Shown piece by piece: positions 26,996 through 57,892 of a stretch of DNA of 64,000 bases (the first letter of the stretch is position 1; every line of letters starts with the position of its first letter). Below the pieces are notes generated by a model. That model saw only the letters and a list, made by a program, of their open reading frames with translations, was not told the DNA's origin and searched no databases. Location of the stretch: positions 50,567 through 114,566 of the forward strand of contig CAYVDE010000001.1 of NCBI GenBank assembly GCA_964450535.1, in the 5' to 3' direction. This stretch comes from an uncultured Desulfobacterales bacterium. Its GTDB lineage: Bacteria > Desulfobacterota > DSM-4660 > Desulfatiglandales > HGW-15. Both the position numbers and the translations under genes were made by a program.

Positions 26996-27045
26996 TGTAG
27001 GTGTAGGTGTAGGTGTAGGTGTAGGTGTAGGTGACCTCAACACCT
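26996..27045. repeat. (TGTAGG)x6 perfect tandem hexamer followed by CTCAACACCT
   Basis: Read directly. It fills the queG-map intergenic gap. Confidence 0.9.
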
Positions 27046-27925
27046 ATCCATCTATTTCATAAGGCGTAAGACTCTCAACCCCATCCTCAGTCACCAGCAG
27101 GGTCTGCTCGAACTGGGCCGAAAGCGACCCGTCGTCCGTCACGGCGGTCCAGTTGTCATCGAGCACGTGGAGCTCCTTGTCCCCGAGGTTGATCATGGGC
27201 TCCACCGTGAAGACCATTCCCGGGACCAGGAGGATTCCACGCCCCTTTCGGCCGTAGTGGGGAACTTGCGGGGGTTCATGGAAGTCGAACCCGACCCCGT
27301 GCCCCACAAACTCCCGGACCACCGAACATCCCCGGCCCTCCGCCAGGGACTGGATGGCCCACCCGATATCCCCTACTCTGCTGCCGGGCCGGACCACGGC
27401 AATCCCGGCCTCCAGGCACTCCCGGGCCACGCGTACGACCTTTTCGGCGTCCGGTCCGGGGGTCCCCACAAAAAAAGTCTTGCTTGTGTCCGCATAGTAA
27501 CCGTTCAGGATGGGAGTAACATCCACGTTGACTATATCGCCCTCCTGAAGGATGCGTTCCCCTGGGATCCCGTGACATATGACTTCGTTTACTGAAACGC
27601 ACACGCTCTTGGGATATCCCCGGTAGTTGAGAGGTGCTGGCACGGCCCCTTTCTGGACGGTGAAGTCGTGGACCAGGGTGTTGATCTCATCCGTACTCAT
27701 CCCCGGGTGAATGTGCCTTTCAACCAGATCGAGGGTATCAACCGCTATTCGGCCCGCTTCCCGCAGCGCCTCGATATCCTTCTCCTTCTTGAGACGGATA
27801 CCGTACTCCCGCCTGTAGGTCTCCTCGTAATCCTGAGCGGCGGGTGGAAACTTGCCCAGGCAGCACTTCTTGTACTTCTTGCCGCTCCCGCAGGGACAAG
27901 GATCGTTTCGGCCGGGCTTGTTCAT
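27044..27925 (-). CDS. map: type I methionine aminopeptidase with N-terminal SEC-C zinc motif
   Basis: SEC-C CPCGSGKKYKKCC. MetAP core: VCHGIP, DIVNVD, FVGHGVG. Confidence 0.9.
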   Translation of the reverse strand: MNKPGRNDPCPCGSGKKYKKCCLGKFPPAAQDYEETYRREYGIRLKKEKDIEALREAGRIAVDTLDLVERHIHPGMSTDEINTLVHDFTVQKGAVPAPLNYRGYPKSVCVSVNEVICHGIPGERILQEGDIVNVDVTPILNGYYADTSKTFFVGTPGPDAEKVVRVARECLEAGIAVVRPGSRVGDIGWAIQSLAEGRGCSVVREFVGHGVGFDFHEPPQVPHYGRKGRGILLVPGMVFTVEPMINLGDKELHVLDDNWTAVTDDGSLSAQFEQTLLVTEDGVESLTPYEIDG

Positions 27926-27995
27926 ATCTCCCTCAAAGAACGGGGTCAGGTGTTAAATTCAAAATTCCGCCAAGAAAAGGCCTGACGCCATTGTG

Positions 27996-28160
27996 TCAGA
28001 TCAGGTCGCACCGAATTCGCGCCAGCGTCTCCTCGATCTCATCATCGATGTCTTCACGCCTCAGACGCCGAAGTCGTCCGCAAGACCTGCAGACCAGAAA
28101 TACGCCGCCTCACTTTCGAACCAGTCGAAATTCGCCCTTATTACAGGTATCACACATCAT
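27996..28160 (-). CDS. 54-codon zinc-ribbon ORF with an in-frame TGA (candidate selenoprotein, readthrough product or pseudogene)
   Basis: Hand translation gives MMCDTCNKGEFRLVRK-TGA-GGVFLVCRSCGRLRRLRREDIDDEIEETLARIRCDLI*. CxxC...CxxC straddles the TGA at 28110-28112. The ATG overlaps the ampG stop (ATGA). Too short to appear in the ORF track. Confidence 0.35.
28076..28094 (-). promoter_or_regulatory. SECIS-like mRNA hairpin 15 nt downstream of the in-frame UGA
   Basis: The mRNA reads GUCUGC-AGGUCUU-GCGGAC: a 6-bp stem including one G.U pair, with a loop containing GGUC. Confidence 0.3.
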
Positions 28161-29482
28161 ATCGGTTGATCATCCCCTTTTTGAGGCCTTTCTTGAGCTT
28201 GTGAGGCCACATCCAGTTCCTCGTTGGTGCTGCTCCATGGAGCAATTCTAAACAACAGCAGCATACCGGGTAAGGCGGCCAGTGCGCAAGTGATGTAAAA
28301 GCCGCTCCAGCCGAGGCCTTTGGCCATGAAGCCGGTTATGGAGGCCGCAACCGTGCTGGGAACCGCCATAAGACTTGTCAGTAAGGCGTACTGGGTTGCG
28401 GTGAAGCGCTTGTTGGTCTGAATAGCCATGTATGTGGCGTACGCGGCCTGGCCCATGCCGGTCGAGAAGAACTCGAATCCTACGATGGCCGAGAGAAGCA
28501 CGTGCCGATACATCTCCCAGAATACAGTGCCGTGGTCGACCCAGACGAGCACCGCGAAGAAGGCCGTTGACAATCCCTGAAAGACCCCGAAGACCCACAA
28601 TGACTTGGCAATGCCCAGGCGGACCATGGCGGCCCCCCCGAGCAGGACTCCTCCGAAGAGGCATGCCATGCCGATTCCCTTAACAATGACGAAATACTCG
28701 GTCTTGGTGAACCCCTGCATGAGGATGAACGGGATGTTCAAGGCCCCGGCCATGTTGTCGCCGATCTTGTACAGGAGTATAAAGAGCAGGATCAACAGGG
28801 CGTCGCGCCTCTTGAAAAACTCCAGAAAAGGCTCCACCACGGACTCCCGCAGGGAAGCCGGGTACGGCGTGTCAACCCGTGGTTCGGGGACCAGCAGCAC
28901 GGTCAGGATACCCCCCACCATCATCAAGGAAAGCAGGACGTGAATGGTGGACCAGGATATGTCGGCATCCGCCGCCATAAAGGCGACTCCGACCGAGACA
29001 TACATACCCAGCCGCCATGCGTTCATCCACACGCCGGTACCGAAACCGAGTTCCTCGGTGCTCAGGTATTCTCTCCTGAACGCATCAAGTGCAATGTCCT
29101 GGCTGGCGCCGAAAAAGGCCACGCAAAGGGCGACCACGGCGATCCACTCGAGTGAGCGGGTCGGGTCGAACTGTCCCAGCAGGGAAATGGTGCCCATCAG
29201 CCCAACCTGGGCCATCAGGATCCATCCCCTGCGTCTCCCGAGAAAAGGGGGGACGAACCGGTCCATAACCGGGGACCAGATGAATTTCAGGGTGTAGGGC
29301 ATGGTCACGGCGGAAAACAACCCGATCGTCGTGAGGTCGATGCTGGCGTCCGTCATCCACGCCTTGAGGACGTCCTTGACGATATAGAAGGGAAAGCCGG
29401 AGGCAATGCCGAATGCGAACATGACGAGCATTCGCCACGAAAACATCACCCTCAGCGTGTGAACAAAACCTTTCCCAGCCAT
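28157..29482 (-). CDS. ampG: AmpG-family MFS muropeptide permease
   Basis: 12 or more TM helices and the AmpG-like loop motif FLGRRRGWIL. Confidence 0.8.
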   Translation of the reverse strand: MAGKGFVHTLRVMFSWRMLVMFAFGIASGFPFYIVKDVLKAWMTDASIDLTTIGLFSAVTMPYTLKFIWSPVMDRFVPPFLGRRRGWILMAQVGLMGTISLLGQFDPTRSLEWIAVVALCVAFFGASQDIALDAFRREYLSTEELGFGTGVWMNAWRLGMYVSVGVAFMAADADISWSTIHVLLSLMMVGGILTVLLVPEPRVDTPYPASLRESVVEPFLEFFKRRDALLILLFILLYKIGDNMAGALNIPFILMQGFTKTEYFVIVKGIGMACLFGGVLLGGAAMVRLGIAKSLWVFGVFQGLSTAFFAVLVWVDHGTVFWEMYRHVLLSAIVGFEFFSTGMGQAAYATYMAIQTNKRFTATQYALLTSLMAVPSTVAASITGFMAKGLGWSGFYITCALAALPGMLLLFRIAPWSSTNEELDVASQAQERPQKGDDQPI

Positions 29483-29533: not shown

Positions 29534-30241
29534 TTAATCGCCTTCATTAACCGCGAGAAAGGTGCCCGGGTCCATGCGGATGCCCGCCAGGGGGGACCCG
29601 TAGGTCTCGTGGTCCTTGAGAAGATTCAGGTGGATGCCGCCGCTATCGGGCAGCATTTGGAGGATTATGTCGAAGAGGTCGTCGATTTCACCCAGTGGAC
29701 CGGGGATACCGCGCTCGTTCATCTCGGGCATGTGGCGGTGACTGACTGCGGAGAACCAGACATCGGTGTTGAAATCCCCGGCCAGTAACTTAAAGGCCTC
29801 CAGGACCTCCCTTCCCGACCTGGAAAAGTCCAGTCCGTCCACAATGAGGGTGTCCGGCCTGAACCCGGCGTGCTTCGCCAGGTTGTCCAGGTTCTCCCTG
29901 AGGCGTTCTATACGGAAGCTGCGGTTTACATAGGCCAGTATCATCCGGTTCTGCTCCATGAGCGCACGGAGCTCGCTTTCGTCTTCTATGTCCAGGGCCT
30001 TTACCAGGTCGTAGAAGATGACGTTATAGTAGGACGTGACCTTTTCAGGCACGTCCACAAGGGAGATGTGGGCCAGCTTTTTCCGTCGAAACAAACGATC
30101 AAAGGCAATGTGAATAAGGCACGCGGTCTTACCCACGCCCGCCCGTGCCGTGAGAACACCCAGGTTGCCCCGGCCCAGGCCTTTTTTGGATGAGTAATCA
30201 AGAATCCGCAACGGACTGGTTCTGGAAAAATCTACAATCAT
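29534..30241 (-). CDS. single-domain RecA-superfamily (KaiC/DnaB-C-like) ATPase
   Basis: Walker [12 protein letters not shown] and Walker [10 protein letters not shown]. The ATG overlaps the EF-G stop (ATGA). Confidence 0.6.
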
Positions 30242-32520: not shown

Positions 32521-34320
32521 TTACATTTTTGTCAAGGTGTATCTGGCAGCGGGAATGGCGTTTTCCGCGATCTGCCGCCTGAGCGCCACCGTATTGACCG
32601 GCGTATACTTGGCCAGCTTCTTGATCCCCATGAGCTGGGTTCGAAGCTCCTCCCCCTCGGATATGGCCGCGAGAATCTGCTTGGCCCACACATCGATCTT
32701 GGGGAGGATATCGTTGATGTATACGCGGGTGGCCGCAATGTGAAGGGCGGCCTTTTCCTCGCCTTCGCGGGCCGCCTTTTTCCTGGCACGCAAAAGTGCG
32801 CTCTCCATGGCAAAGATCTCGATGATCATATCCGCGATGTAGGCGATGATCTCCTGCTCTTTTGCCAGTTTCTGCATGTACTTCTGGGCGGCTGCCCCCG
32901 CTGCGAGGAGAGCGATCTTCTTGGCGTTTTGCACCATCTTCTCTTCCGCATCCAGCAGGGCCTCTTCTTCGCCCATTCCCATTGAGGGCCTCATGGCCAG
33001 AAGATCGCCCATCACCTTCTGCACGGCTTCCAGAAGCGGAAGTTCCCCCTTCATGGCCGCCTTCATGATAGTGTCCACTATGATCATCCGGTTGATCTCA
33101 TTGGTCCCTTCCCATATGCGGTTGATGCGGGAATCCCGGTAGGCGCCCTCTGCGGGGTACTCCTGGATGTAGCCGTACCCGCCGTAGATCTGGACGCACT
33201 CATCCACCACGTAGTCCAGCATCTCGGAACCGTACACCTTGTTGATGGAACACTCGAGCGCGTACTTGCGAAGGGCCTCGCCGGTCTCCTTGCCGGCCTC
33301 GGCCTGGGTGGGATCGATTCCTTCCAGTGTGAGATCCAGGAGGCCCGCCGTCCTGTAGACCATACTCTCGGTAACGTAAATCCGAATGACTATCTCAGCG
33401 ATCTTGGCCCGGATCAGGTTGAAATCCGAAATGGGCCGGCCGAACTGCACTCGTCCTTTTGCGTACTTTATGGTCTCGGTCAGCATAATCTTTGCAGACC
33501 CTACGGTGAAAGCGGCCAGCTTGTAGCGGCCCACGTTGAGCGTGTTCAAGGCCACCACGTGCCCGCGCCCAACCTCGCCCAGGACATTTTCCACCGGGAC
33601 CTTCACGTCCTGAAAGATGACGGCGCGGGTGGAACTGCCGTGCACGCCCATCTTCTTTTCTTCCTCGTCCACCGAGACCCCGTCCCAGGACCGTTCCACT
33701 ATGAAGCTGGTAAACTTGTCGCCGTCCGCCTGCGCGTATGTAAGGAAAAGGTCGGCGAACCCGGCGTTAGTGATAAACTGCTTCTGGCCGTTGAGGACGT
33801 AATACTTGCCGTCCTCGGACAAAGTGGCCGTGGTCTCCGCGCCCAGGGCGTCGGACCCGTGGCCCGGTTCGGTCAGGGCATAGGCCCCCACCCACTCGGC
33901 GCTCGCCAGCTTGGGGAGGTACTTTTTCTTCTGCTCCGGCGTCCCGAACAGGACCACGGGCAGGCTGCCGATGCCTGTCTGGACCGCCAGGGTCACGGCG
34001 AAACCACTGATACCCTGGCTCATGTGCTCCGTGATAAGGGTCCCGCTCACCTTGTCCAGCTCGGATCCCTCATACACCTCGGGCATGTCGGCCCCAAGGA
34101 ATCCCAGTTCGCCCGCTTTCTTGAGCAGCTCGCGGAGAAGCTCCGGGTTGCATTCGGCGAGTTCCTCTCTCTGCGGCACAAGCTCTCCCTGGCCGAACTC
34201 CACGGCGCTCTTGCCGATCATTATCTGTTCCTTATCAAAATCCTCGGGCGTGAACACCTCTTCGGGCGACGCGTCCACGAGCAGGAACTCCCCACCCTTG
34301 AAAAGCTTCATTTCACCCAT
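32521..34320 (-). CDS. long-form acyl-CoA dehydrogenase
   Basis: ACAD signatures YALTEPGHGSD and IWEGTNEINRMII, plus an extended C-terminal domain. RBS AAGGAGG. Confidence 0.9.
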   Translation of the reverse strand: MGEMKLFKGGEFLLVDASPEEVFTPEDFDKEQIMIGKSAVEFGQGELVPQREELAECNPELLRELLKKAGELGFLGADMPEVYEGSELDKVSGTLITEHMSQGISGFAVTLAVQTGIGSLPVVLFGTPEQKKKYLPKLASAEWVGAYALTEPGHGSDALGAETTATLSEDGKYYVLNGQKQFITNAGFADLFLTYAQADGDKFTSFIVERSWDGVSVDEEEKKMGVHGSSTRAVIFQDVKVPVENVLGEVGRGHVVALNTLNVGRYKLAAFTVGSAKIMLTETIKYAKGRVQFGRPISDFNLIRAKIAEIVIRIYVTESMVYRTAGLLDLTLEGIDPTQAEAGKETGEALRKYALECSINKVYGSEMLDYVVDECVQIYGGYGYIQEYPAEGAYRDSRINRIWEGTNEINRMIIVDTIMKAAMKGELPLLEAVQKVMGDLLAMRPSMGMGEEEALLDAEEKMVQNAKKIALLAAGAAAQKYMQKLAKEQEIIAYIADMIIEIFAMESALLRARKKAAREGEEKAALHIAATRVYINDILPKIDVWAKQILAAISEGEELRTQLMGIKKLAKYTPVNTVALRRQIAENAIPAARYTLTKM

Positions 34321-34350
34321 TTCGTCCTCCTTGTATCATTGCTGTTAAGC

Positions 34351-35535
34351 TCAATATTCCTCCACCTCAAAGATGGCGGCGGCGCCCATGCCGAATCCGA
34401 TGCACATGGATACGAGGCCCCACCTGGCCTTGCGCTCGTGCATCTCGTAGACGAGCTGGGTGGTCAGCTTGGACCCGGTGCAGCCCAGGGGATGTCCCAG
34501 GGCTATGGCCCCGCCGTTCACGTTTGTTATCTCTTCATTGATGCCCAGCTCGCGTATGCAGTAGATGGCCTGGGCCGCAAAGGCCTCGTTGAGTTCGATG
34601 AGGTCCATCTGCTCGAGGTCCATGCCGGCGACCTTCAGGACCTTTGGAATGGCCACGGCCGGCCCGACACCCATGTACTCGGGCGGGCATCCTTCGACCA
34701 CATGAGTCCTGAACGTGGCCATGGGCTTGAGTCCCAGCTCCTTGGCCTTCTCCTTGCTCATGAGGACCACGCCCGCTGCGGCGTCGCTGGTCTGCGAGGA
34801 GTTGCCGGCGGTAACGCTGCCCGTGGGCTTGAACGCGGGTTTGAGCCCGCCGATGCTCTCCTTTGTGGTGCCCGGCCGGACGCCCTCGTCCGTGTCAAAG
34901 ACGAACTCCTCGAACTCGAACCGGCCGTTTTTCAGCTTCTTCTGCTTCTTCACGGTTATGGGCACGATCTGTTCCTTGAACTTGCCCGCCTTGACGGCCG
35001 CTTCCGCCTTCTGCTGGCTCAGCGCCCCGAACTCGTCCTGCTCGTCGCGTGTGATGCCGTACTTCTCGGCCACGTTCTCGGCCGTAAGCCCCATGCCGGT
35101 GAAGGCCCCGGGCCGTTCATCCACAAGTGCCGGGTTCGGGTACATCATGCTCCCGCCCATGGGGATCTGGCTCATGCTCTCCACGCCTCCCGCAATGACC
35201 ACGTCCGAATACCCGCACATGATCTTCTCGGCGCCGATGGCGATGGACTGGAGCCCGGACGAGCAGAAGCGGTTTACTGTCATGCCCGGGACCCGGTCCG
35301 GCCAACCCATGGACATGACCAGGACGCGGCCCAGGTTGAGGCCCTGTGTGGCCTCGGGAAAAGTGCATCCTATGATCACGTCATCGATCAAGTTGGGGTC
35401 GAGGTCTCCCGCTCTCTTGACCAGTTCTCCCAGCACGGTGCATCCCATGTGCTCCGGGCGGGTGTCCTTGAGTATTCCGCGAGGGGCCTTTCCGACCGCC
35501 GTTCGGCAGGCGGCGACGATCACGGCTTCTCTCAT
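34351..35535 (-). CDS. acetyl-CoA C-acyltransferase (thiolase)
   Basis: Active-site Cys in [24 protein letters not shown], and C-terminal SMCIGFGMG. Confidence 0.9.
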
Positions 35536-35611
35536 GGCGTTTCCTCCTTGCAGTTACTGCTCTCAGTTATCAGGGGCCGGGTTCCTCCCCTGTTCTTTAC
35601 TCATCCGTCAT

Positions 35612-38044
35612 CTAATTCCTAAGCGGCTTTCCGGTCTGCAGCATGTGCTGTATCCGCATCTGGGTCTTGGGTTCCCCGCAGAGACTCAGGAAGGCCTCCC
35701 GCTCGAGATCCAGCAGGTACTGCTCGCTCACCACGGTGTCGGCCAGGACCTCGCCCCCGCAGAGGACGTAACCCACCCTGGTGGAAACTGTTACGTCGTG
35801 ATCCGTGATAAAGCCCGACTCGTGCATCGTCCACAGGCCCAGCTTGATCATGGCGAAGTTGTTCGCGCCCGCAACCCGTATCTCGTCACGGTACATGGGA
35901 GGCTGGTACCCCTCCATGTTCATGGCGATCACGGTCTTTTTGGCGTCTTCTATCTGATAGTCCCGATTCACGGTCATCTTGTCGGTCGGCCTCAGATAAC
36001 CCACCTTCACGGCCTCGGGCCCTGAAGTGGCCACCTTGGCCATGGCAATGGTCTCAAAGGCCCTGGCAATGTAAGGCATGAGTTCGATCTGCTTGGGATA
36101 CAGCCCGCCCCGCGGCACCTCGAAGAGGTGCTCCGTGTTGCGCAGGTAGAGCTCCTTGGTGCCTCCGCCGGCCGGAATGAGGCCCACGCCCACCTCAACG
36201 AGGCCCATGTAGGTCTCGGCGGCGAAGCGCACGCGGTCGGAGGCAAGGCAGATCTCGCAGCCTCCGCCCAAGGCCATGCCGGCCGGGGCCGCCACAACGG
36301 GCTTGTCAAGGTACTTGAGCTTCATGAAGGCGTCCTGAAAGGTCTTGATCATCCAGTCCAGGTCGTCCCACTCCTCTTCCTGGGCCGTGAAAAGGACCAT
36401 GGGCAGATTGGCCCCGGCTGAGAAGTTGGTCCCGTGGTTGGCGATGACAAGGCCGTCGAAATCCTTGGACACGATATCGGCCGCCTTGTAGACCATGGTG
36501 ACGATGTCGTCTCCCATGGCGTTCATCTTGGTGTGGAACTCCAGGCAAGCGACGCCGTCGCCCAGGTCCACAAGAGTGGCGCCCTTGTTGCCGGTCACGG
36601 TCATGTCCCGGTCCTTGAGTGCCGGGAGCAGAATGACGCCCGCCTTTACGGGGACTTCTTTGTAGGTCTTGCCGGCCGGGTCGTAATACAGGGACTTGCC
36701 CGCATCCATCTTGTAAAAGGACTCGTTGCCCTGATCCAGCATTTCCTGGACCCAGCCAGGTATCTCATAACCGGCCTTTTTCATCTTCTTGACGGACGCT
36801 GCAACGCCCAGGGCGTCCCATGCCTCGAACGGACCCATCTTCCAGGCAAAGCCCCACTTCATGGCGTTGTCCACGTTCACGATGTCGTCGGCGATCTCGG
36901 GAATGCGGTTCGCCGAGTAGATGAGCGTCTCGGCCGTCTGGCGGAAAGTGAACTCGCCCGCCTTGTCGTCAGCGTAGAAAAGGGCCTTTATTTTGGCGCC
37001 CGTGCCGGACATGGTCTGTGCCGCTTCAAGGGAAGCGAACTTGACCTTCTCCTGAGGAGTGAACTCCAAAGTCTCCGTGTCGATAGAAAGGATAATCTTC
37101 TTACCCTTCTCGTCCTTTCCCTTCTTGTAAAAACCCTGCTTGGTCTTCTCGCCCAAAAGCTTCTTTTCGAGCATTTTCTTCAAAAGCTCAGGGGGCTTAA
37201 ACGTGTCCCGCTTCTCGTCGTCCGGCGCGCCCTCATAGACGTTTTCCGCCACGTGAAGGAGCGTATCCAGCCCCACCAGGTCGGCGGTTCTGAACGAGGC
37301 GCTCTTGGGGTGCCCTATGACCGGGCCGGTCAGTTTGTCCACGGCCTCTATGGAAAGCCCCAGATCCAGCATGGAACGTATCACATGAAGCATGCTGAAT
37401 ACGCCGATCCTGTTTGCTATGAAGTTGGGGGTGTCCTTTGCCCAGACAACCCCCTTGCCCACCACTTTTTCACAGATCTCGTCCAGCGCCTCGAGCACCT
37501 CGGGCAGGGTGTCCTCGCACGGCACGATCTCCAAAAGCTTCATATACCTGGGAGGGTTGAAAAAATGGGTGATGGCGAAGTGCTTGCGAAAGGCCTCCGA
37601 CCTCCCCTCGCTCATCGCCTTGGCCGATATGCCGGAAGTGTTGGAGGTGACAATGGTGCCGGGACTCAGCACGCCTTCGATCTTTTCAAAGACCTTTTTC
37701 TTGATGTCGAGCCTCTCAACCACCACCTCGATAATCCAGTCCACCTCCCGAAGGCGCTCCAGATCGTCCTCGAGGTTCCCGATCTCCACCCGCTTGGCGT
37801 ACTCAGAGATGTAAAAGGACGCCGGCCGGCTCTTGAGAGCTGTCTCCAAGCCCTGACGGGCAAGTTTGTTTCTAAACTCTTTGCTCTCTTCCGTGAGCCC
37901 TTTCTTGCGGTCCTCGTCGGTCAGTTCAGGAGGGACGATGTCCAGGAGCAGGGTCTCAATGCCCACGTTCGCGAGCTGGGCGGCGATGGTCGCTCCCATG
38001 ACGCCGGCCCCTATGACCCCGGCCCGTTTGATCTTGCTGCTCAT
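35612..38044 (-). CDS. bifunctional 3-hydroxyacyl-CoA dehydrogenase / enoyl-CoA hydratase (FadB/FadJ-like, HAD domain first)
   Basis: AGVIGAGVMGATIAAQLA Rossmann motif at the N-terminus. Crotonase-like ALGGGCEICLASD in the C-terminal third. Start trimmed to MSSKIK (ATG 38044, RBS GGAGG). Confidence 0.9.
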   Translation of the reverse strand: MSSKIKRAGVIGAGVMGATIAAQLANVGIETLLLDIVPPELTDEDRKKGLTEESKEFRNKLARQGLETALKSRPASFYISEYAKRVEIGNLEDDLERLREVDWIIEVVVERLDIKKKVFEKIEGVLSPGTIVTSNTSGISAKAMSEGRSEAFRKHFAITHFFNPPRYMKLLEIVPCEDTLPEVLEALDEICEKVVGKGVVWAKDTPNFIANRIGVFSMLHVIRSMLDLGLSIEAVDKLTGPVIGHPKSASFRTADLVGLDTLLHVAENVYEGAPDDEKRDTFKPPELLKKMLEKKLLGEKTKQGFYKKGKDEKGKKIILSIDTETLEFTPQEKVKFASLEAAQTMSGTGAKIKALFYADDKAGEFTFRQTAETLIYSANRIPEIADDIVNVDNAMKWGFAWKMGPFEAWDALGVAASVKKMKKAGYEIPGWVQEMLDQGNESFYKMDAGKSLYYDPAGKTYKEVPVKAGVILLPALKDRDMTVTGNKGATLVDLGDGVACLEFHTKMNAMGDDIVTMVYKAADIVSKDFDGLVIANHGTNFSAGANLPMVLFTAQEEEWDDLDWMIKTFQDAFMKLKYLDKPVVAAPAGMALGGGCEICLASDRVRFAAETYMGLVEVGVGLIPAGGGTKELYLRNTEHLFEVPRGGLYPKQIELMPYIARAFETIAMAKVATSGPEAVKVGYLRPTDKMTVNRDYQIEDAKKTVIAMNMEGYQPPMYRDEIRVAGANNFAMIKLGLWTMHESGFITDHDVTVSTRVGYVLCGGEVLADTVVSEQYLLDLEREAFLSLCGEPKTQMRIQHMLQTGKPLRN

Positions 38045-38127
38045 AAGGAGACCTCCTTCTCGTTGATCAATGATCCTTGCCTTGCTCCCCGGTCCATTCA
38101 AAGCGCCTCTGTACCCGCCGGCTGAAA

Positions 38128-38145
38128 TGAATGAACATTCATTCA
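38128..38145. promoter_or_regulatory. perfect 8-2-8 palindrome TGAATGAA-CA-TTCATTCA, candidate operator upstream of the beta-oxidation genes
   Basis: Read directly from the sequence. It lies 84-101 nt upstream of the fadB-like ATG. Confidence 0.4.
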
Positions 38146-38207
38146 CAAAAATCTAACACACGCCGTTTTCCCAAGTCAACTGTTTTTAGGAAAAGGGGGA
38201 AAGGGCC

Positions 38208-45702: not shown

Positions 45703-47334
45703 ATGAACAAGAAGACCCGCACCTCCCATCCACAATCGTCCCCACCCACTCCTTCAGTTGCGGTCGTGGGAAGCGGCTACTGGGGAAAGAACCTGGTCAG
45801 GAACTTCCACGGAATCGGCGCCCTGAAACTCATCTGCGACCGTAGCGAGGCCGTGCTCTCCGGGTTCCGCGACCAGTACCCGGACATTGAGACCTGCCTC
45901 GCGCTGAACGACGTCCTGTCCAGAGATGACATCAAGGCTGTGGCCGTGGCCACACCGGCAGAGACCCACTTCACCGTGTCCAGGGAGGCCCTGTTTGCAG
46001 GAAAGCACGTGTTCACGGAAAAGCCTCTGGCCCTCCGTGTAACCGATGCCGCGGCCCTCGTGGACCTGGCCCAAGACAGGGGCCTCACCCTCATGGTGGG
46101 ACACCTGCTCCAGTACCATCCGGTCTTCCAGCGGCTCAAGGAACTCGCGGACGCTGGGGAACTCGGCCGGATCAACTACATTTACTCCAACCGCCTGAAC
46201 CTCGGAAAGATACGCCGGGAGGAAAACATCCTATGGTCATTCGCCCCGCACGACATCTCCATGATCCTTACCCTGGCGGGGGAAGAGCCGGAGACAGTGC
46301 TTGCCACCGGAGGTTACTACCTCCACCAGCGGATCGCGGACGTCACAACCACGCACCTGGCCTTTTCGTCAGGCCTAAGGGCCCAGGTCTTCGTGTCCTG
46401 GCTCCACCCGTTCAAAGAGCAGAAGCTGGTAGTGGTGGGCGACAAAAAGATGGCGGTCTTTGACGACACTCAACCCTGGGAGGAAAAGCTCCTCCTCTAT
46501 GCCCACCAGATCCAGTGGCAGGACCACCTCCCCGTCCCCACAAAGGCGGAGCCTGAACGCCCGGACATCCCTCAGGACGAGCCCCTGCGCCTCGAGTGCC
46601 TGCACTTCCTCAACGCCTTCAAAGACGGCAGCACCCCGTTCACTGACGGCCGGGAGGGCGTCCGCGTGCTCAAGGTCCTGAACGCCGCCCAGGAATCCCT
46701 TGACAACGGAGGCAGGGCCGTTCCCATCGGCAGCGGTGAGGCCGTCGCCGGGCCTGAAGCGACAACCGATAAGCCCTACTTTGTCCACGAGACAGCGGTG
46801 GTGGACGAAGAGTGCGAGATAGGCGCCGGCACCAGAATATGGCACTTTACCCACGTCCTTTCACGGTCCCGTATCGGTGAGAATTGCAACATAGGCCAAA
46901 ACGTGATGATCGGGCCGGACGTCACCCTGGGCAAGGGATGCAAGCTCCAGAACAACGTGAGCGTTTATCCCGGCGTGACTCTAGAGGACTACGTTTTCTG
47001 CGGTCCCAGCATGGTCTTCACCAATGTCTACAACCCCAGGGCCGGACTCAGGAAGATGGACCAGGCCCGGTCAACCCTTGTGAGGAAAGGCGCCACCATC
47101 GGGGCCAACGCCACCATAGTCTGCGGCAACACCCTGGGCCGCTATTGCTTTGTGGGCGCCGGCGCGGTGGTGAACCGTAACGTGCAGGACTACGCCCTTG
47201 TGGTGGGTAACCCGGCACGGCGCATAGGCTGGGTGTGCGAGTGCGGGGAACGCCTCCCGGACGACCTCGTTTGCCTAACCTGCTCCAAGGCCTACCTGCC
47301 CGAAGGAGACGGCATTACAAGAATTGGGGGCTGA
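45703..47334 (+). CDS. fusion of Gfo/Idh/MocA oxidoreductase (WbpB-like) and left-handed-beta-helix N-acetyltransferase (WbpD-like)
   Basis: VAVVGSGYWGKN Rossmann motif at the N-terminus. Hexapeptide repeats (IGENCNIGQNVMIGPDVTLGKGCKLQNNVSV) in the C-terminal 190 aa. Confidence 0.8.
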   Translation: MNKKTRTSHPQSSPPTPSVAVVGSGYWGKNLVRNFHGIGALKLICDRSEAVLSGFRDQYPDIETCLALNDVLSRDDIKAVAVATPAETHFTVSREALFAGKHVFTEKPLALRVTDAAALVDLAQDRGLTLMVGHLLQYHPVFQRLKELADAGELGRINYIYSNRLNLGKIRREENILWSFAPHDISMILTLAGEEPETVLATGGYYLHQRIADVTTTHLAFSSGLRAQVFVSWLHPFKEQKLVVVGDKKMAVFDDTQPWEEKLLLYAHQIQWQDHLPVPTKAEPERPDIPQDEPLRLECLHFLNAFKDGSTPFTDGREGVRVLKVLNAAQESLDNGGRAVPIGSGEAVAGPEATTDKPYFVHETAVVDEECEIGAGTRIWHFTHVLSRSRIGENCNIGQNVMIGPDVTLGKGCKLQNNVSVYPGVTLEDYVFCGPSMVFTNVYNPRAGLRKMDQARSTLVRKGATIGANATIVCGNTLGRYCFVGAGAVVNRNVQDYALVVGNPARRIGWVCECGERLPDDLVCLTCSKAYLPEGDGITRIGG

Positions 47335-47360
47335 AAAACTAACAGAGAAAGGAATCAATC

Positions 47361-48491
47361 ATGCAGTTCATAGATCTCAAAGCGCAGCAGACCCGCATTC
47401 GCGAGGCCATTGAATCCAACATCCGCGGCGTGCTCGACCACGGCAGCTATATCATGGGCCCTGAGATCCGCAAGCTTGAAGAGCGCCTTGCCGCCTATAC
47501 GGGCGTGAGGCACGCCGTCGGCTGTTCGTCGGGCACCGACGCCCTGATTCTGGCCCTCATGGCGCTTGATATCGGCCCGGGCGACGCGGTATTCACCGCG
47601 CCCTTCACCTTTGTGGCAACGGCCGAAGTGATAAGCCTGCTTGGAGCGACCCCTGTGTTCGTGGACATCGACCGGTCCACCTACAACATCGACCCGTCCG
47701 CGCTCGATAAGGCTGTCACGGCCTTCAAGGACAACCGCGAAAATCGCCTTTTCACACCGAGGGCCGTCATCCCGGTGGACCTCTTCGGCCTGCCCGCGGA
47801 CTACGACGCGATCAACGAAATCGCCCGCAAGCACGATCTCATGGTCGTCGAAGACGCTGCCCAGTCTTTCGGCGGGGAGTACAAGGGGCGCAAGGCATGC
47901 AGCCTGGGCCGCATAGGCTGCACGTCTTTTTTCCCGGCCAAGCCCCTCGGCGCGTACGGCGACGGGGGCATGATCTTCACCGACGACGACAGGATCAACG
48001 AGACCCTGCGTTCCATCCTGGTCCACGGCCAGGGCAGGGATAAGTACGAAAACGTGCGCATCGGCATGAACGGCCGCCTTGATACCATTCAGGCCGCGGT
48101 TCTTTTGGCCAAGTTCGACATCTTTGCCGAGGAGATCGAGCTCCGGCAGGAGGTGGCGGCCCAATACAATGAGCGCCTCGCAAAGGCAGCCCCGGACCTG
48201 GTCCTGCCCTCAATTCCTCAGGGCTATGTCTCGGCCTGGGCCCAGTATTCGGTACTGGCCCGGGATTCAGAGCATAGGGCCGATATTCAGGCGACCCTCA
48301 AGGAAGCGGGCATACCCACGGCCATATACTACCCCAAGCCCCTCCACCTACAGGGTGCGTTCGCAGGCCTGGGATACAAAGAGGGGGACTTCCCGATCAG
48401 CGAGGACTGCTCCAAACGCATATTCAGCCTGCCCATGCACCCGTACTTGAAGGCGGCGGACCAGGACCGGATAGCAGCAACCATTTCCTGA
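47361..48491 (+). CDS. DegT/DnrJ/EryC1-family PLP aminotransferase (WbpE-like)
   Basis: GCSSGTDAL and the PLP-lysine context SFFPAKPLGAYGDGG. Confidence 0.9.
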   Translation: MQFIDLKAQQTRIREAIESNIRGVLDHGSYIMGPEIRKLEERLAAYTGVRHAVGCSSGTDALILALMALDIGPGDAVFTAPFTFVATAEVISLLGATPVFVDIDRSTYNIDPSALDKAVTAFKDNRENRLFTPRAVIPVDLFGLPADYDAINEIARKHDLMVVEDAAQSFGGEYKGRKACSLGRIGCTSFFPAKPLGAYGDGGMIFTDDDRINETLRSILVHGQGRDKYENVRIGMNGRLDTIQAAVLLAKFDIFAEEIELRQEVAAQYNERLAKAAPDLVLPSIPQGYVSAWAQYSVLARDSEHRADIQATLKEAGIPTAIYYPKPLHLQGAFAGLGYKEGDFPISEDCSKRIFSLPMHPYLKAADQDRIAATIS

Positions 48492-48495
48492 AAAC

Positions 48496-49593
48496 ATGGA
48501 GGAACTCTTGGATAAACGGATCCTTCACGTGGTGGGGGCCCGGCCCAACTTCATGAAGGCGGCGCCGGTCCACGCGGCCCTGTCAGAAAAAGAAGGGGTC
48601 TCCCAGTTCCTGGTGCACACGGGCCAGCACTACGATGAGATCATGAGCGAGGTCTTCTTCAAGGAGCTGGACCTCCCCGAACCGGACCTCAACCTTGAAG
48701 TGGGCTCGTCCTCTCACGCGATTCAGACCGCCGAGGTCATGATCCTCTTCGAGCAGGTGGTCCTCAAGCAGGGGCCGGATCTCGTGGTGGTTTACGGGGA
48801 TGTGAACTCCACCCTGGCCGCGGCCCTGGCCTGCGCAAAGCTCGGGATCTCCGTGGCCCATGTGGAAGCCGGGCTGAGGTCCTTTGACAAGACCATGCCT
48901 GAGGAGATCAACCGGGTCCTCACGGACCACATCTCGGACCTCCTGTTCACCCCCTGTGTGGACGGCAATGAGAACCTGGCTCGCGAAGGCGTGGACCGGG
49001 ACAAGGTCCATCTGGTGGGAAACGTGATGATAGACACCCTGATGAGGCTCTTTCCCAGGGCCCTGGAGCGCTGGGACCAAGGGCTTTCCGAGCAGTGGGG
49101 CCAAGGGGACTACGCACTGGTCACCCTTCACCGGCCTTCCAACGTCGACGACCCCGACCGGCTTGGGCGGCTCATGAGCGCCCTGGACGAACTCTGCAGG
49201 GAAGTCCGCGTAGTGTTCCCCATCCATCCCCGCACGCGCAGCCGGCTCCAGGACCTCTCATTCGAGCCGGGCGGCAAGGACCTTCACCTGATCGAACCCT
49301 TGGGCTACCTTGACTTCCTGGCGCTCCAGCGCCACGCGTCGGTGGTGATAACCGACTCGGGCGGTGTTCAGGCGGAAACCACCTTTATGGGAGTGCCCTG
49401 CGTAACGGCCCGGTCCAACACCGAGTGGCCGGTCACCACGGACATGGGCACGAACACCCTGGTGGGCGGGGACACGGACGCGCTCAAAAAAGCGGTCCGG
49501 GACGCCCTGCAAGGCCCGCCCGAACTCAAAGCCATCCCGCCCCTCTGGGACGGGCACGCCGGCGAACGCATCGCCTCCCGCCTCTGCGCTTGA
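48496..49593 (+). CDS. wecB: UDP-N-acetylglucosamine 2-epimerase (non-hydrolysing; WecB/WbpI-like)
   Basis: VGARPNFMK, HVEAGLRSFD and DSGGVQAE motifs. Confidence 0.9.
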   Translation: MEELLDKRILHVVGARPNFMKAAPVHAALSEKEGVSQFLVHTGQHYDEIMSEVFFKELDLPEPDLNLEVGSSSHAIQTAEVMILFEQVVLKQGPDLVVVYGDVNSTLAAALACAKLGISVAHVEAGLRSFDKTMPEEINRVLTDHISDLLFTPCVDGNENLAREGVDRDKVHLVGNVMIDTLMRLFPRALERWDQGLSEQWGQGDYALVTLHRPSNVDDPDRLGRLMSALDELCREVRVVFPIHPRTRSRLQDLSFEPGGKDLHLIEPLGYLDFLALQRHASVVITDSGGVQAETTFMGVPCVTARSNTEWPVTTDMGTNTLVGGDTDALKKAVRDALQGPPELKAIPPLWDGHAGERIASRLCA

Positions 49594-49605
49594 CAAAAGC
49601 TTGTC

Positions 49606-49634
49606 TTGAGCGTGTGCCGTATCTGAAGTATAGT
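49606..49634 (+). promoter_or_regulatory. sigma70-like promoter for the TA pair (TTGAGC-17-TATAGT)
   Basis: Hexamers and the 17-nt spacer were read directly. It lies 67 nt upstream of the mntA ATG. Confidence 0.45.
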
Positions 49635-49700
49635 GAATTGGAATTCGGGGACACCCCAAATGCAACCGTCCCCTAAACGCAACAATGAAAGGTTCGGCCC

Positions 49701-50084
49701 ATGGACCTAGCCGCTGCGGGAAACTACCTTCAGACCAGGGAAGACGTAGCCTTCGCCTACCTGTTTGGAAGCATGGCCTCGGAAAAGCCCACACCCTTGA
49801 GCGACGTGGACATTGCCGTCTATCTCAACGAGGGGGATTTTTCACGAAAACGCCTCGAACTCATCGGGGACCTGAGCGATATTCTGGGCACGGACCGTAT
49901 CGACCTCGTGATACTGAACACGGCTCCACCCGGCCTCAGGGCCAGGGTGGTGAGGGCAAGGACTGTGCTTGCGGATCGTCAACCCTCGGCGCGTAACGCT
50001 TTTGAGTCCAGAACACTTAGGGTTTACATGGATTTTTCCAAGCTCGAAGACCGCATTTTAACCCGAAGGTACCTTCATGGTTGA
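49701..50084 (+). CDS. mntA: MntA-type nucleotidyltransferase antitoxin
   Basis: LFGSMASEK...LSDVDIAV (GSx10-ish DxD minimal NTase). Confidence 0.75.
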   Translation: MDLAAAGNYLQTREDVAFAYLFGSMASEKPTPLSDVDIAVYLNEGDFSRKRLELIGDLSDILGTDRIDLVILNTAPPGLRARVVRARTVLADRQPSARNAFESRTLRVYMDFSKLEDRILTRRYLHG

Positions 50085-50502
50085 CAAGACTCTCATCCTC
50101 AGAAGACTTGCCGATCTGGATGAATACCTGGAGCAGATTAGCGAGTACATGGATATCACTGCTGAATCCTATACAAAAGACTGGAAAACACAAAGGATCG
50201 TCGAACGGACACTTCAGATGATGATTGAAACATGCCTGGATATCAGCGGCCACATCATCTCAGACAAGGGATTCAGCGTACCACAAACGTACGCCGACAC
50301 ATTCCGCATCCTGGTAAAAAAACATATCCTTGATCAGTCGCACCTGAACGCCTTCGAAAAAATGGCGCAGTTTCGAAATATCGTAGTTCATGATTACGAA
50401 AAAATTGACCCCAAAATAGTGGTAGGAATACTGAGAAGGAATCTTGGCGATTTCGCGAGCTTCAAGGAATCCATAATCCGATACCTAAAAACCGAAAAGT
50501 GA
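50077..50502 (+). CDS. hepT: HepT-type (DUF86) RNase toxin
   Basis: Rx4HxY motif FRNIVVHDY. Overlaps mntA by 8 nt. Confidence 0.8.
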   Translation: MVDKTLILRRLADLDEYLEQISEYMDITAESYTKDWKTQRIVERTLQMMIETCLDISGHIISDKGFSVPQTYADTFRILVKKHILDQSHLNAFEKMAQFRNIVVHDYEKIDPKIVVGILRRNLGDFASFKESIIRYLKTEK

Positions 50503-50516
50503 TGCACCAGGAAACT

Positions 50517-52934: not shown

Positions 52935-53094
52935 CGGAGGCGCTTTTGCGCTCAAGGCCCCGGTATTCACATTTTTCTTTTGACACCCCCTTGCTTACAT
53001 TTTACTATTCCTGGAATTGAGGCATTCAATGTCCGGGAACAGGCTTGTCAATGGAATGCCCGTAATCAGGCTCGGCCTTAACAAGGAGCGACCC

Positions 53095-54228: not shown

Positions 54229-54274
54229 TAAAGAGGCGTTCAGGCATCACACGATTTCTCAATAGGGGATTGCA

Positions 54275-54820
54275 ATGAAAAGGTGGTCATGGGCCTGTTT
54301 CTTCCTTTTGGCATTCATGGGCTGCGCAGGCGGATACGATGGTGTTTACAGCCCTAAGCAGAACTGCATGGATCTGATGAAGGGCGATCTCTGTAAAACG
54401 GCGTATGTAATCACCGATACTCTCATTAATAACGCCCAGACCCCTCTGAGCCTGGAGCAAATTATTCTGGTTTCCTGCTTCGTGGACGTGAACAACGTGG
54501 AAAGGACCTCCAGCTTCGGCAGAATGCTGGCGGAGCAAATGGCTTCACGACTTGCCCAGAACGGATACATGGTAGTGGAGATGAAGCTGAGGACTTCCCT
54601 CTACATCAAGGAGCGGGAGGGCGAATTCCTTCTCTCCCGGAGGCTCAAGGACATCCAAAAGGCCCATGATGCCCAGGCGGTGGTGGTGGGCACGTACATG
54701 GTTTCTCCCAAGGACCTTTATCTATCGGCCCGGATTGTTCGCGCCCAGGACGCCAAGATCATTTCCTCCTGCGATGCGAAGATCCCTCTGACTGAAGATC
54801 TCAAGGCCACCCTTTGGTAA
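54275..54820 (+). CDS. small lipoprotein, FlgO/LpoB-like fold suspected
   Basis: Lipobox LLAFMGCAG. The pattern ILVSCFVDVNN...SSFGRMLAEQMASRLAQNGY resembles FlgO-family proteins, judged from memory only. Confidence 0.45.
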   Translation: MKRWSWACFFLLAFMGCAGGYDGVYSPKQNCMDLMKGDLCKTAYVITDTLINNAQTPLSLEQIILVSCFVDVNNVERTSSFGRMLAEQMASRLAQNGYMVVEMKLRTSLYIKEREGEFLLSRRLKDIQKAHDAQAVVVGTYMVSPKDLYLSARIVRAQDAKIISSCDAKIPLTEDLKATLW

Positions 54821-54890
54821 GCAGACCCTTTGTATACTCTACCTCGACCCCCCCACATGAATTGTCATTGTAGATCAGGATAGCAGGCCC

Positions 54891-57770: not shown

Positions 57771-57864
57771 TCCCCGCCTCCTTTTTCAGGGAGAAGTCAA
57801 TGCCGGGGAGGTGGAGTGCACGTGTTACCATATGAAGCGATAGGATAAACGATAAACAAAAACA

Positions 57865-57892
57865 TTGACAATTGAGAAGGTTAGCTTACAAT
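57865..57892 (+). promoter_or_regulatory. near-consensus sigma70 promoter (TTGACA-16-TACAAT) in an AT-rich gap
   Basis: Read directly. It lies 73 nt upstream of the parA-like ATG and is preceded by a GATAAAC GATAAAC direct repeat. Confidence 0.5.

What the first reader, a model, noticed from the sequence alone, without database searches (positions are those of the whole stretch)
27996..28160. Unannotated zinc-ribbon mini-ORF with in-frame UGA and a SECIS-like hairpin: candidate small selenoprotein
Seen: my hand translation of the minus strand gives MMCDTCNKGEFRLVRK-UGA-GGVFLVCRSCGRLRRLRREDIDDEIEETLARIRCDLI*. The two CxxC knuckles of one zinc ribbon lie on either side of the UGA, in the same frame. 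The ATG overlaps the ampG stop (ATGA). Fifteen nt after the UGA the mRNA can fold as GUCUGC-AGGUCUU-GCGGAC. Established (from memory): the bacterial SECIS is a hairpin shortly after the UGA. The E. coli fdhF apical region reads GCAGGUCUGC, with GGUC in the loop. Sec usage is common in deltaproteobacterial anaerobes. Inference: the UGA is Sec or a programmed readthrough codon. Otherwise it is a recent nonsense mutation in a small conserved gene.
Basis: partly seen in the sequence, partly recalled or inferred. Interest (0 to 1): 0.65.

Follow-up and report, generated by a model that had tools for sequence, protein, structure and literature searches.

The report
Small zinc-ribbon selenoprotein gene, known family
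The 54-codon gene with an internal UGA is real and almost certainly encodes a small selenocysteine-containing zinc-ribbon protein, but it belongs to a family predicted in 2007 and already catalogued by NCBI, so it is a correct but ordinary find.

Summary
Minus strand 28160..27996 reads MMCDTCNKGEFRLVRK-UGA-GGVFLVCRSCGRL...IRCDLI-stop. Its ATG overlaps the ampG stop (ATGA), and a GUCUGCA-GGUCU-UGCGGAC hairpin starts 15 nt after the UGA.

The read-through product matches NCBIfam NF041197, 'dual CXXC motif small (seleno)protein', over its full length (E 1.4e-9). This is 'OS_HP3' of Zhang & Gladyshev 2007, with Sec motif RxU; the window has R-K-U. Cys at codon 17 scores 6-8 bits higher than Ala, Trp or X, so the UGA sits on the model's Sec/Cys column.

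I recovered 13 relatives from metagenomes and NCBI assemblies, 56-63% identical. All 13 have TGA at the same codon. Past the UGA the frame is under purifying selection (pS 0.67, pN 0.19).

The hairpin is conserved: 91% of cells pair, against 41-56% in slid controls, with compensatory changes and frozen synonymous sites. It meets the published bacterial SECIS rules and shares UGCAGGUCU with the E. coli fdhF SECIS.

Three things are not shown. No selA/B/C/D lies in the window, no Cys-form homologue was found, and the function is unknown. The predicted fold is a zinc ribbon plus a C-terminal helix.

Verdict: a new member of a known kind, of low to moderate interest.

The parts
27996..28160 (-). 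Mini-gene of 54 sense codons plus stop: MMCDTCNKGEFRLVRK-U-GGVFLVCRSCGRLRRLRREDIDDEIEETLARIRCDLI
   Evidence: Read directly. NF041197 hit at E 1.4e-9 covers residues 3-53 against profile positions 1-52 of 53. Thirteen homologues have the same architecture.
28110..28112 (-). In-frame UGA, codon 17: predicted selenocysteine within the motif R-K-U
   Evidence: TGA in 14 of 14 family sequences. The HMM score is 37.9 bits with Cys here, against 30.0-31.7 with X, Ala or Trp. The family Sec motif is listed as 'RxU' in PMC13188914.
28063..28107 (-). SECIS-like extended hairpin: lower stem, internal loop and upper stem-loop, starting 3 nt after the UGA
   Evidence: RNAalifold consensus. In 14 sequences 91.4% of cells pair, against 41-56% in slid controls; covariation score 0.296 against at most 0.116; 0 of 500 shuffles reach it. 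The window copy folds at -17.0 kcal/mol, z -2.17.
28076..28094 (-). Upper stem-loop GUCUGCA-GGUCU-UGCGGAC. The apical loop is at 28083..28087, 22 nt after the UGA
   Evidence: Folds at -10.0 kcal/mol, z -3.1. It shares UGCAGGUCU with the E. coli fdhF SECIS. Codons are frozen here: Cys TGC 11/11, Arg AGG 10/10, Gly GGA 11/11. pS is 0.29 here against 0.67-0.80 elsewhere in the gene.
28143..28154 (-). First Cys knuckle, C3-D-T-C6
   Evidence: Read directly. Most relatives have C-x-C-G at this place.
28080..28091 (-). Second Cys knuckle, C24-R-S-C27. The same bases form the upper SECIS stem-loop
   Evidence: C24 and C27 are invariant in the alignment. The AF2 model puts them at the end of strand 20-24.
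28008..28010 (-). Invariant C-terminal Cys51, in the motif (I/M)xCD(R/L)(L/I) at the end of the predicted helix
   Evidence: Invariant column C51 and D52. Predicted helix spans residues 40-51.
28157..29482 (-). ampG (AmpG-family muropeptide MFS transporter). Its stop overlaps the mini-gene start (ATGA)
   Evidence: TIGR00901 at 413 bits, cutoff 350. AmpG-like MFS genes also adjoin the mini-gene in L011, L013, L017, L020 and L022.
27044..27925 (-). map (type I methionine aminopeptidase with an N-terminal SEC-C zinc motif), 70 nt downstream
   Evidence: TIGR00500 at 316 bits. Orthologues 69-75% identical adjoin the mini-gene in L003, L004, L011, L013, L020, L021 and L022.
27981..28000 (-). Terminator-like hairpin plus T-rich tail, overlapping the mini-gene stop
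   Evidence: One site found in 800 nt, against 0.9 expected from shuffles. This is weak and only positional.

Best explanation
This is an intact, translated gene for a 54-residue selenoprotein. It belongs to the family 'dual CXXC motif small (seleno)protein' (NCBIfam NF041197, also known as OS_HP3).

Proposed mechanism of translation:
- Ribosomes start at the ATG that overlaps the ampG stop. I infer that translation is coupled to ampG.
- At codon 17 the UGA is decoded as selenocysteine by SelB with Sec-tRNA(Sec).
- SelB is recruited by the hairpin that begins 3 nt after the UGA. Its apical GGUCU loop lies 22 nt downstream and resembles the SelB-binding minihelix of E. coli fdhF.

Proposed product:
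- The predicted fold is a three-stranded zinc ribbon. The two knuckles (C3/C6 and C24/C27) presumably bind one metal ion.
- Sec17 sits exposed in the turn of the beta-hairpin between the knuckles.
- An acidic C-terminal helix follows and ends in an invariant Cys51.
- My inference, not shown: Sec17 is the reactive centre of a small redox or metal/metalloid-handling protein, possibly with Cys51 as partner.

What is shown: gene reality, UGA conservation, coding constraint past the UGA, hairpin conservation, and the family match.
What is inferred: actual Sec insertion, metal binding, and the biochemical role.
For: 1. Family match. NF041197 hits at E 1.4e-9 and 37.9 bits over the full length. Swapping codon 17 from Cys to Ala, X or Trp costs 6-8 bits. 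The family is listed as a selenoprotein with motif RxU (PMC13188914) and was first predicted as OS_HP3 with a SECIS figure (PMC1976440).

2. UGA conservation. Thirteen homologues were recovered: L003, L004, L008, L010, L011, L013, L014, L015, L017, L018, L020, L021, L022. They are 56-63% identical to the window protein. All have TGA at the same codon, although my search pattern also allowed TGY for Cys.

3. Coding constraint past the UGA. Mean pS is 0.67 and pN 0.19. For the C-terminal 19 codons the values are 0.80 and 0.20.

4. The hairpin.
- The RNAalifold consensus has 19 pairs.
- 91.4% of cells pair, against 41-56% in slid controls, and 0 of 500 shuffles reach the covariation score.
- Compensatory changes occur at columns 15/53 (GC, CG, UG), 24/44 and 25/43 (GC, GU, AU).
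- Synonymous sites in the upper stem-loop are frozen, while all 13 invariant-residue columns outside it use at least 2 codons.

5. bSECIS rules quoted. All four are met: loop of 3-9 nt (here 5), upper stem of 4-16 bp (here 7), G in the first two loop positions (GG), and spacing of 16-37 nt (here 22). The MFE limit of -7.5 kcal/mol is also met (-10.0 and -17.0).

6. Similarity to fdhF. The apical sequence UGCAGGUCU is identical to the E. coli fdhF SECIS.

7. Fold. The AF2 model has pLDDT 80, with strands at 11-15, 20-24 and 30-32 and a helix at 40-51. Foldseek returns only zinc-ribbon proteins.
Against: - No selA, selB, selD or tRNA-Sec lies in the 64 kb window. Sec competence of this organism is therefore unproven.
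- No Cys-containing homologue was found, so the classical Sec/Cys-pair criterion is not met directly.
- The HMM score of 37.9 bits is just under the curated cutoff of 40. Clear relatives score 35.3-44.6.
- No Rfam family hit the region, at gathering score or up to E 10.
- The hairpin overlies the conserved residues VCRSCG. Part of its conservation is therefore confounded with protein constraint.
- I found no experimental evidence for Sec in this family in the papers I read.
Confidence: 0.87

Rival explanations
1. The UGA is read through without selenium. A near-cognate tRNA would insert Trp, Cys or Arg, or the hairpin would simply slow termination, giving a full-length non-Sec protein.
For: Translation past the UGA is well supported, but nothing here shows which residue is inserted. 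No Sec machinery is visible in the window.
Against: A codon kept as TGA in 14 of 14 diverged sequences, never replaced by a sense codon, is hard to explain if an ordinary residue were wanted. The hairpin meets the SECIS rules and carries the fdhF-type GGUC loop at the expected distance. A curated HMM and reviews treat the family as a selenoprotein.
Confidence: 0.06
2. The gene is a pseudogene that was inactivated by a recent nonsense mutation.
For: An in-frame stop interrupts an otherwise intact small ORF. Gene callers do not call it.
Against: The same TGA is present in all 13 homologues, which come from different samples and gene neighbourhoods. The dN/dS ratio downstream of the stop is about 0.1-0.2. 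The window copy is full-length with every invariant residue present.
Confidence: 0.01
3. Translation stops at the UGA and yields a 16-residue peptide. The conserved downstream sequence would then be an RNA element, such as a regulatory hairpin for map or ampG, and not coding sequence.
For: The hairpin is conserved and shows covariation. The mini-gene sits between ampG and map in an apparent operon.
Against: The 19 codons beyond the hairpin show a protein-type pattern, with pS 0.80 and pN 0.20. The second CxxC, an amphipathic helix and an invariant Cys-Asp are all conserved in this one frame. The HMM aligns across the whole 53 positions.
Confidence: 0.03
4. The ORF and its CxxC pairs are a chance pattern in an intergenic spacer.
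For: The ORF is short and overlaps mechanical ORFs on the opposite strand.
Against: The family HMM hits at E 1.4e-9. tblastn of relatives back to the window gives E 1e-15 to 1e-16 at this site only. Thirteen homologues exist, and good ribosome-binding sites can be read upstream of several of them.
Confidence: 0.005

Closest known systems
NCBIfam NF041197 'dual CXXC motif small (seleno)protein', which is 'hypothetical protein OS_HP3' of Zhang & Gladyshev 2007 (PMC1976440) and is listed in PMC13188914 and PMC9312934
   Same: The length is about 53 residues, with Cys knuckles on either side of the Sec. The Sec motif is RxU (here R-K-U). A SECIS-like hairpin lies immediately downstream. The HMM aligns over the full length at E 1.4e-9.
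   Different: The score of 37.9 bits is just under the curated cutoff of 40. The window copy has a true CxxC first knuckle, as the model does, whereas most metagenomic relatives I recovered have C-x-C-G. I could not retrieve the published example sequences (WP_425411677.1, SMF39960.1, AASZ01001720) for a direct comparison.
E. coli fdhF SECIS, the SelB-binding apical minihelix
   Same: The apical sequence UGCAGGUCU is identical, with GGUC in the loop and an A-U closing pair. The hairpin starts just after the UGA within the coding sequence.
   Different: The GGUC begins 22 nt after the UGA here and 18 nt after it in fdhF. The loop is 5 nt (GGUCU or GGUCC) instead of 4. No bulged U is evident in the upper stem. 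SelB binding has not been tested.
Zinc-ribbon domains: eIF2-beta/aIF2-beta C-terminal ribbon, TFIIB/Brf1, Rpb9/TFIIS, and the small zinc-finger protein ZifS (8yoz)
   Same: Two Cys knuckles bracket a beta-hairpin, followed by a third strand (AF2 model). All top Foldseek and HMM matches are zinc ribbons.
   Different: No match is significant (Foldseek E at least 0.13; PDB HMM E at least 0.13). None of these proteins has Sec or Cys in the hairpin turn, and none has the acidic helix ending in Cys-Asp.

Membership tests
NF041197 dual CXXC motif small (seleno)protein (OS_HP3) | Significant full-length match to the family HMM | tested here: met
   E 1.4e-9; residues 3-53 align to profile positions 1-52 of 53.
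NF041197 dual CXXC motif small (seleno)protein (OS_HP3) | Score at or above NCBI's curated cutoff of 40 bits | tested here: inconclusive
   The window scores 37.9 bits with Cys standing in for Sec. Seven clear relatives with the same UGA score 35.3-44.6, so the cutoff splits the clade. This is an operational threshold and not a biological feature.
NF041197 dual CXXC motif small (seleno)protein (OS_HP3) | UGA aligned to the family's Sec/Cys column, with motif RxU | tested here: met
   The window has R15-K16-U17. Cys at position 17 scores 37.9 bits, against Ala 31.1, X 30.0 and Trp 31.7. The RxU motif is given in PMC13188914.
NF041197 dual CXXC motif small (seleno)protein (OS_HP3) | Two Cys knuckles flanking the Sec in a protein of about 53 residues | tested here: met
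   C3xxC6 and C24xxC27 in a 54-residue protein. C24 and C27 are invariant in the alignment.
Bacterial SelB/SECIS-dependent selenoprotein | In-frame UGA conserved in homologues, with coding constraint continuing past it | tested here: met
   TGA in 14 of 14 sequences. Downstream pS is 0.67 and pN 0.19.
Bacterial SelB/SECIS-dependent selenoprotein | Downstream hairpin meeting the bSECIS model: loop 3-9 nt, stem 4-16 bp, G in loop position 1 or 2, 16-37 nt from the UGA, MFE at most -7.5 kcal/mol | tested here: met
   The rules are quoted. Here the loop is GGUCU (5 nt), the stem is 7 bp, the spacing is 22 nt, and the MFE is -10.0 or -17.0 kcal/mol. The hairpin is conserved with covariation.
Bacterial SelB/SECIS-dependent selenoprotein | Cys-containing homologues aligning Cys with the UGA (Sec/Cys pair) | tested here: not met
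   No Cys form appeared among the 14 sequences, although the DNA pattern allowed TGY. None appeared in 1.84 billion representative proteins or in the 5.8-billion-protein search. The 2007 paper also found 0 Cys homologues. This is a supporting criterion, not an obligatory one.
Bacterial SelB/SECIS-dependent selenoprotein | selA, selB, selC (tRNA-Sec) and selD present in the same genome | not testable with these tools
   None lies in the 64 kb window. The only other contigs holding this organism's exact AmpG protein are 3.7-4.4 kb long.
Bacterial SelB/SECIS-dependent selenoprotein | Selenium physically incorporated at the UGA | not testable with these tools
   This needs 75Se labelling or mass spectrometry.
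Zinc ribbon fold | Two Cys knuckles on a three-stranded sheet that bind one metal ion | tested here: inconclusive
   The AF2 model (pLDDT 80) has strands at 11-15, 20-24 and 30-32. Only zinc ribbons appear among the fold hits, but none is significant. Metal binding is untested.

The most novel reading that the evidence does not exclude
This clade may be an obligate-Sec zinc ribbon, with no Cys form found anywhere I searched. It may work together with its recurrent neighbours.

- An AmpG-family MFS permease adjoins the mini-gene in both gene orders. In the window the two genes overlap (ATGA, ampG first). Elsewhere the mini-gene lies 15-100 nt upstream of the MFS gene.
- A SEC-C-motif methionine aminopeptidase and QueG also recur next to it.

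On this reading the Sec hairpin tip would be a selenium-dependent redox or metal switch, or a small subunit of the transporter, and not a free-standing oxidoreductase.
Probability: 0.1. Interest if true: 0.5.

Novelty: new member of a known kind. Interest (0 to 1): 0.27.

Why it matters
The practical value is in annotation.
- Standard gene callers miss this gene, or call only a 33-residue fragment starting at an internal Met.
- The window copy also falls 2 bits below NCBI's cutoff, so automated pipelines will probably keep missing it.

The biological value is modest.
- It adds a well-supported member and 13 relatives to a selenoprotein family that is still uncharacterised experimentally.
- It shows that this clade is Sec-only in the data I searched.
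- It defines a conserved, fdhF-like SECIS whose bases also encode the second zinc knuckle.
- It points to a recurrent neighbourhood (AmpG-like MFS, SEC-C Map, QueG) that could guide functional tests.

It does not open a new category.

Tried and rejected
- Rfam. The whole window at gathering score, and the locus at E up to 10, gave no SECIS or other relevant family. Only two chance snoRNA matches appeared.
- tRNA scan of the window found nothing.
- Word-indexed protein search with the single 54-residue sequence found nothing.
- Two genome-contig scans, one with the single protein and one with a 2-sequence alignment, gave pattern matches but no tblastn-confirmed relative. I therefore obtained no organism names, and the taxon of the window stays unknown.
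It accepted X at position 17 and returned only 2 hits.
- Folding a loosely cut 76-nt stretch gave z +0.74. This looked like a negative result until the hairpin was delimited from the alignment. The genuine fdhF SECIS also scores z -0.07, so shuffle z-scores do not discriminate here.
- I scanned every intergenic gap of the window for other TGA-interrupted ORFs and found nothing convincing besides this gene.
- Pfam/NCBIfam scans of about 45 window genes looking for selA, selB or selD found none.
- PDB sequence and fold searches for a specific structural relative gave only generic, non-significant zinc ribbons.
- Literature searches for the SRA runs and for ZifS gave nothing useful.
- I considered and rejected three readings, each for the reasons given under rival explanations: a chance ORF, a pseudogene, and a 16-residue peptide plus a regulatory RNA.

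Full report
**1. The observation**

Reading the minus strand from 28160 gives ATG ATG TGT GAT ACC TGT ... CGA AAG TGA GGC GGC GTA TTT CTG GTC TGC AGG TCT TGC GGA ... CTG ATC TGA. The translation is MMCDTCNKGEFRLVRK-stop-GGVFLVCRSCGRLRRLRREDIDDEIEETLARIRCDLI-stop.

- The internal TGA is at 28112..28110 (codon 17). The terminal TGA is at 27998..27996.
- The upstream gene (29482..28157, minus) is a true AmpG-family muropeptide permease (TIGR00901, 413 bits against a cutoff of 350). It ends ...ATA TGA, so the mini-ORF ATG overlaps its stop as ATGA.
- Seventy nt downstream begins a type I methionine aminopeptidase with an N-terminal SEC-C motif (27925..27044), followed by queG.
- Fifteen nt after the UGA the RNA folds as GUCUGCA-GGUCU-UGCGGAC.

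**2. What it is**

Pfam gives only sub-threshold zinc-ribbon-type hits. NCBIfam gives a specific match: NF041197 'CxxC_Se_CxxC, dual CXXC motif small (seleno)protein'. The E-value is 1.4e-9 at 37.9 bits, with residues 3-53 aligned to profile positions 1-52 of 53.

I tested whether the UGA lies on the model's Sec/Cys column by changing residue 17. Cys scores 37.9 bits, Ala 31.1, X 30.0 and Trp 31.7. The model column therefore clearly prefers Cys, the residue I substituted for Sec.

The literature places this family as a known predicted selenoprotein.
[quoted passage not shown] The window has R-K-U.
- The family goes back to Zhang & Gladyshev 2007 (PMC1976440). That paper reports two TGA-containing genes in the Olavius delta-1 and delta-4 symbionts, no Cys homologues, and a SECIS drawn in its Fig. 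5E.

**3. Homologues**

Protein databases hardly contain the family, because gene callers stop at the UGA.
- The exhaustive HMMER search of 1.84 billion representatives, with X at position 17, returned only two hits. One is a 237-residue protein with three Sec-less zinc-ribbon repeats. The other is a 33-residue fragment.
- Reading upstream of that fragment on its contig (L003) shows MKCKCGSRFNLVRK-TGA-SGVFMVCRSCG....
- I then scanned metagenome contigs with a degenerate DNA pattern encoding h-h-R-x-(TGA or TGY)-x-G-x-F-h-h-C-x-x-C-G. It returned 16 loci. Nine are clear family members, and all nine have TGA. The seven loci with TGY are unrelated chance matches.
- A profile search of the 5.8-billion-protein collection returned only further 33-residue fragment calls and one 95-residue variant. 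The contigs of three of these fragments (L020, L021, L022, from NCBI assemblies) again show TGA at the same codon.

In total 14 of 14 sequences carry the UGA, and the relatives are 56-63% identical to the window protein. The invariant residues are L13, R15, U17, G19, V20, F21, C24, C27, G28, L33, D37, I38, E41, E43, L46, C51 and D52.

**4. Translation continues past the UGA**

Nei-Gojobori counts on the 37 codons after the UGA give a mean pS of 0.67 and pN of 0.19. For the last 19 codons, which lie outside the hairpin, the values are 0.80 and 0.20. This is the signature of a protein-coding frame. It excludes a recent nonsense mutation, and it also excludes the idea of a 16-residue peptide followed by a non-coding RNA.

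**5. The hairpin**

RNAalifold on 11 sequences predicts a 19-pair hairpin: a lower stem, an internal loop, and an upper stem with apical GGUCY. I then counted pairs for that structure on 14 sequences.

- In the 14-sequence alignment 91.4% of cells form standard pairs, against 41-56% when the 3' partner is slid by 1-3 columns.
- The covariation score is 0.296, against at most 0.116 in the slid controls. None of 500 shuffles reaches it.
- Pairs 15/53 (GC, CG, UG), 24/44 and 25/43 (GC, GU, AU) change on both sides.
- The upper stem-loop is encoded by V-C-R-S-C-G, so I examined synonymous sites. Cys+7 is TGC in 11 of 11 sequences, Arg+8 is AGG in 10 of 10, and Gly+11 is GGA in 11 of 11. The variation that does occur (GUC/GUU, UGC/UGU, UCC/UCU) keeps the pairing. 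All 13 invariant-residue columns outside the stem-loop use two to four codons.
- pS in these six codons is 0.29, against 0.67-0.80 elsewhere.

The window copy meets each published bSECIS constraint: a 5-nt loop, a 7-bp upper stem, GG at the start of the loop, and 22 nt from UGA to loop. The MFE is -10.0 kcal/mol for the 23-nt stem-loop (z -3.1) and -17.0 for the 45-nt hairpin (z -2.2).

The window shares UGCAGGUCU with it. The GGUC begins 22 nt after the UGA here, against 18 nt in fdhF.

**6. The protein**

AlphaFold2 was run on the window sequence plus the six fragment calls. It gives pLDDT 80, with strands at 11-15, 20-24 and 30-32 and a helix at 40-51. This is a zinc ribbon followed by a helix, with U17 in the turn between the first two strands.

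Foldseek against the PDB returns only zinc ribbons (ZifS 8yoz, aIF2-beta, TFIIB/Brf1, Rpb9/TFIIS). None is significant, with E at least 0.13. A PDB profile search is similarly weak.

The function is therefore unknown. The best inference is a small redox or metal-handling protein with an exposed selenol, possibly partnered by the invariant C-terminal Cys51.

**7. Genomic context**

- A SEC-C Map orthologue (69-75% identical) adjoins the mini-gene in the window and in L003, L004, L011, L013, L020, L021 and L022. QueG lies next to it wherever the contig extends that far; L003 ends within map.
- An AmpG-like MFS gene follows the mini-gene directly in L011, L013, L017, L020 and L022. It matches TIGR00901 at 218-231 bits where tested (L011, L017, L020), which is below the cutoff, and is 25-30% identical to the window AmpG. 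In the window a bona fide ampG precedes the mini-gene and overlaps it.
- Other members (L008/L014/L015 and L010/L018) sit in different neighbourhoods.
- The linkage may reflect shared ancestry or function. I treat it as a lead only.

**8. What is not shown**

- The window contains no selA, selB, selD or tRNA-Sec, and I could not reach the rest of the genome. AmpG's exact sequence occurs only on two short Logan contigs, and both genome-contig scans found nothing.
- No Cys form was found.
- Rfam has no hit.
- The HMM score is 2 bits under the curated cutoff, although relatives straddle it at 35.3-44.6 bits.
- I found no experimental work on this family.

**9. Verdict**

The gene is a new member of a known, computationally predicted selenoprotein family. 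It is not a new kind of element. Interest is low to moderate. The value lies in correcting annotation, in a clean comparative case for the SECIS, and in the context lead.

Noticed in passing
L017:64-223 (+): One relative has the conserved Sec-TGA, hairpin and C-terminus, but its N-terminus lacks the first Cys knuckle. It also carries an in-frame TAG nine codons before the TGA (atg caa cgt TAG ggt aaa ttc...). The cause could be decay of the N-terminus, a different start codon, or a Pyl-decoding host. The contig starts 60 nt upstream, so this cannot be resolved.
   Followed up: partly
window 28157-29482 and 27044-27925; L011, L013, L017, L020, L021, L022, L003, L004: The mini-gene has a recurrent neighbourhood. 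A SEC-C-motif methionine aminopeptidase plus queG lies on one side and an AmpG-family or AmpG-like MFS permease on the other. Two different gene orders occur: ampG>mini>map in the window, and map<|>mini>MFS elsewhere.
   Followed up: partly
L003, L004, L008, L010, L011, L013-L015, L018, L020-L022: Most relatives have C-x-C-G as the first knuckle. The window, and apparently the NCBIfam model, have CxxC, and the window protein has two extra residues there.
   Followed up: no
P0002-P0007 (33 aa each); L003, L020, L021, L022: Public gene calls for this family are systematically truncated. When residue +5 after the Sec is Met, callers start there and emit a 33-residue 'protein' M(V/I)CRSCG.... Otherwise nothing is called, as on L002, which is identical to the window.
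   Followed up: yes
P0001 (237 aa, from the representatives search): This protein has three tandem copies of a related zinc ribbon (CKxCGGxLxKKK..G(D)(L/I)FLVCE(D/E)CGKKYKL) separated by Pro/Glu/Ala-rich linkers. By my hand alignment of the first repeat, Ala occupies the position of the Sec. It is the only full-length, non-Sec relative found (E 1.6e-7).
   Followed up: no
P0008 (95 aa): This fragment call diverges after ...EIERMLA into an unrelated 60-residue tail and loses the invariant C-terminal Cys-Asp. It may be a frameshifted or fused variant.
   Followed up: no
window 27981-28000 (-): A terminator-like hairpin (CTGAC...GTCAG followed by CCTTTTCTTG) overlaps the mini-gene stop codon, 55 nt before map. 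It is the only such site in 800 nt, but this is no more than shuffles give.
   Followed up: partly
window 29534-30241 (-); L004:3552-4247 (-): A 235-residue protein lies between the EF-G paralogue and ampG. It has no Pfam hit on record and no significant NCBIfam family; its best hits are faint KaiC/DnaB-type P-loop matches (E about 0.01). It is conserved at 57% identity in the same position in L004.
   Followed up: no
window 45703-61637 (+) and 32521-38146 (-): The window also carries a large exopolysaccharide / PEP-CTERM-type cluster: a sugar transferase (TIGR03013/TIGR03025), chain-length determinant, tyrosine kinase, WecB, an aminotransferase and a TPR protein. It also carries a fatty-acid beta-oxidation block with acyl-CoA dehydrogenase, thiolase and a 3-hydroxyacyl-CoA dehydrogenase/enoyl-CoA hydratase fusion.
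   Followed up: no
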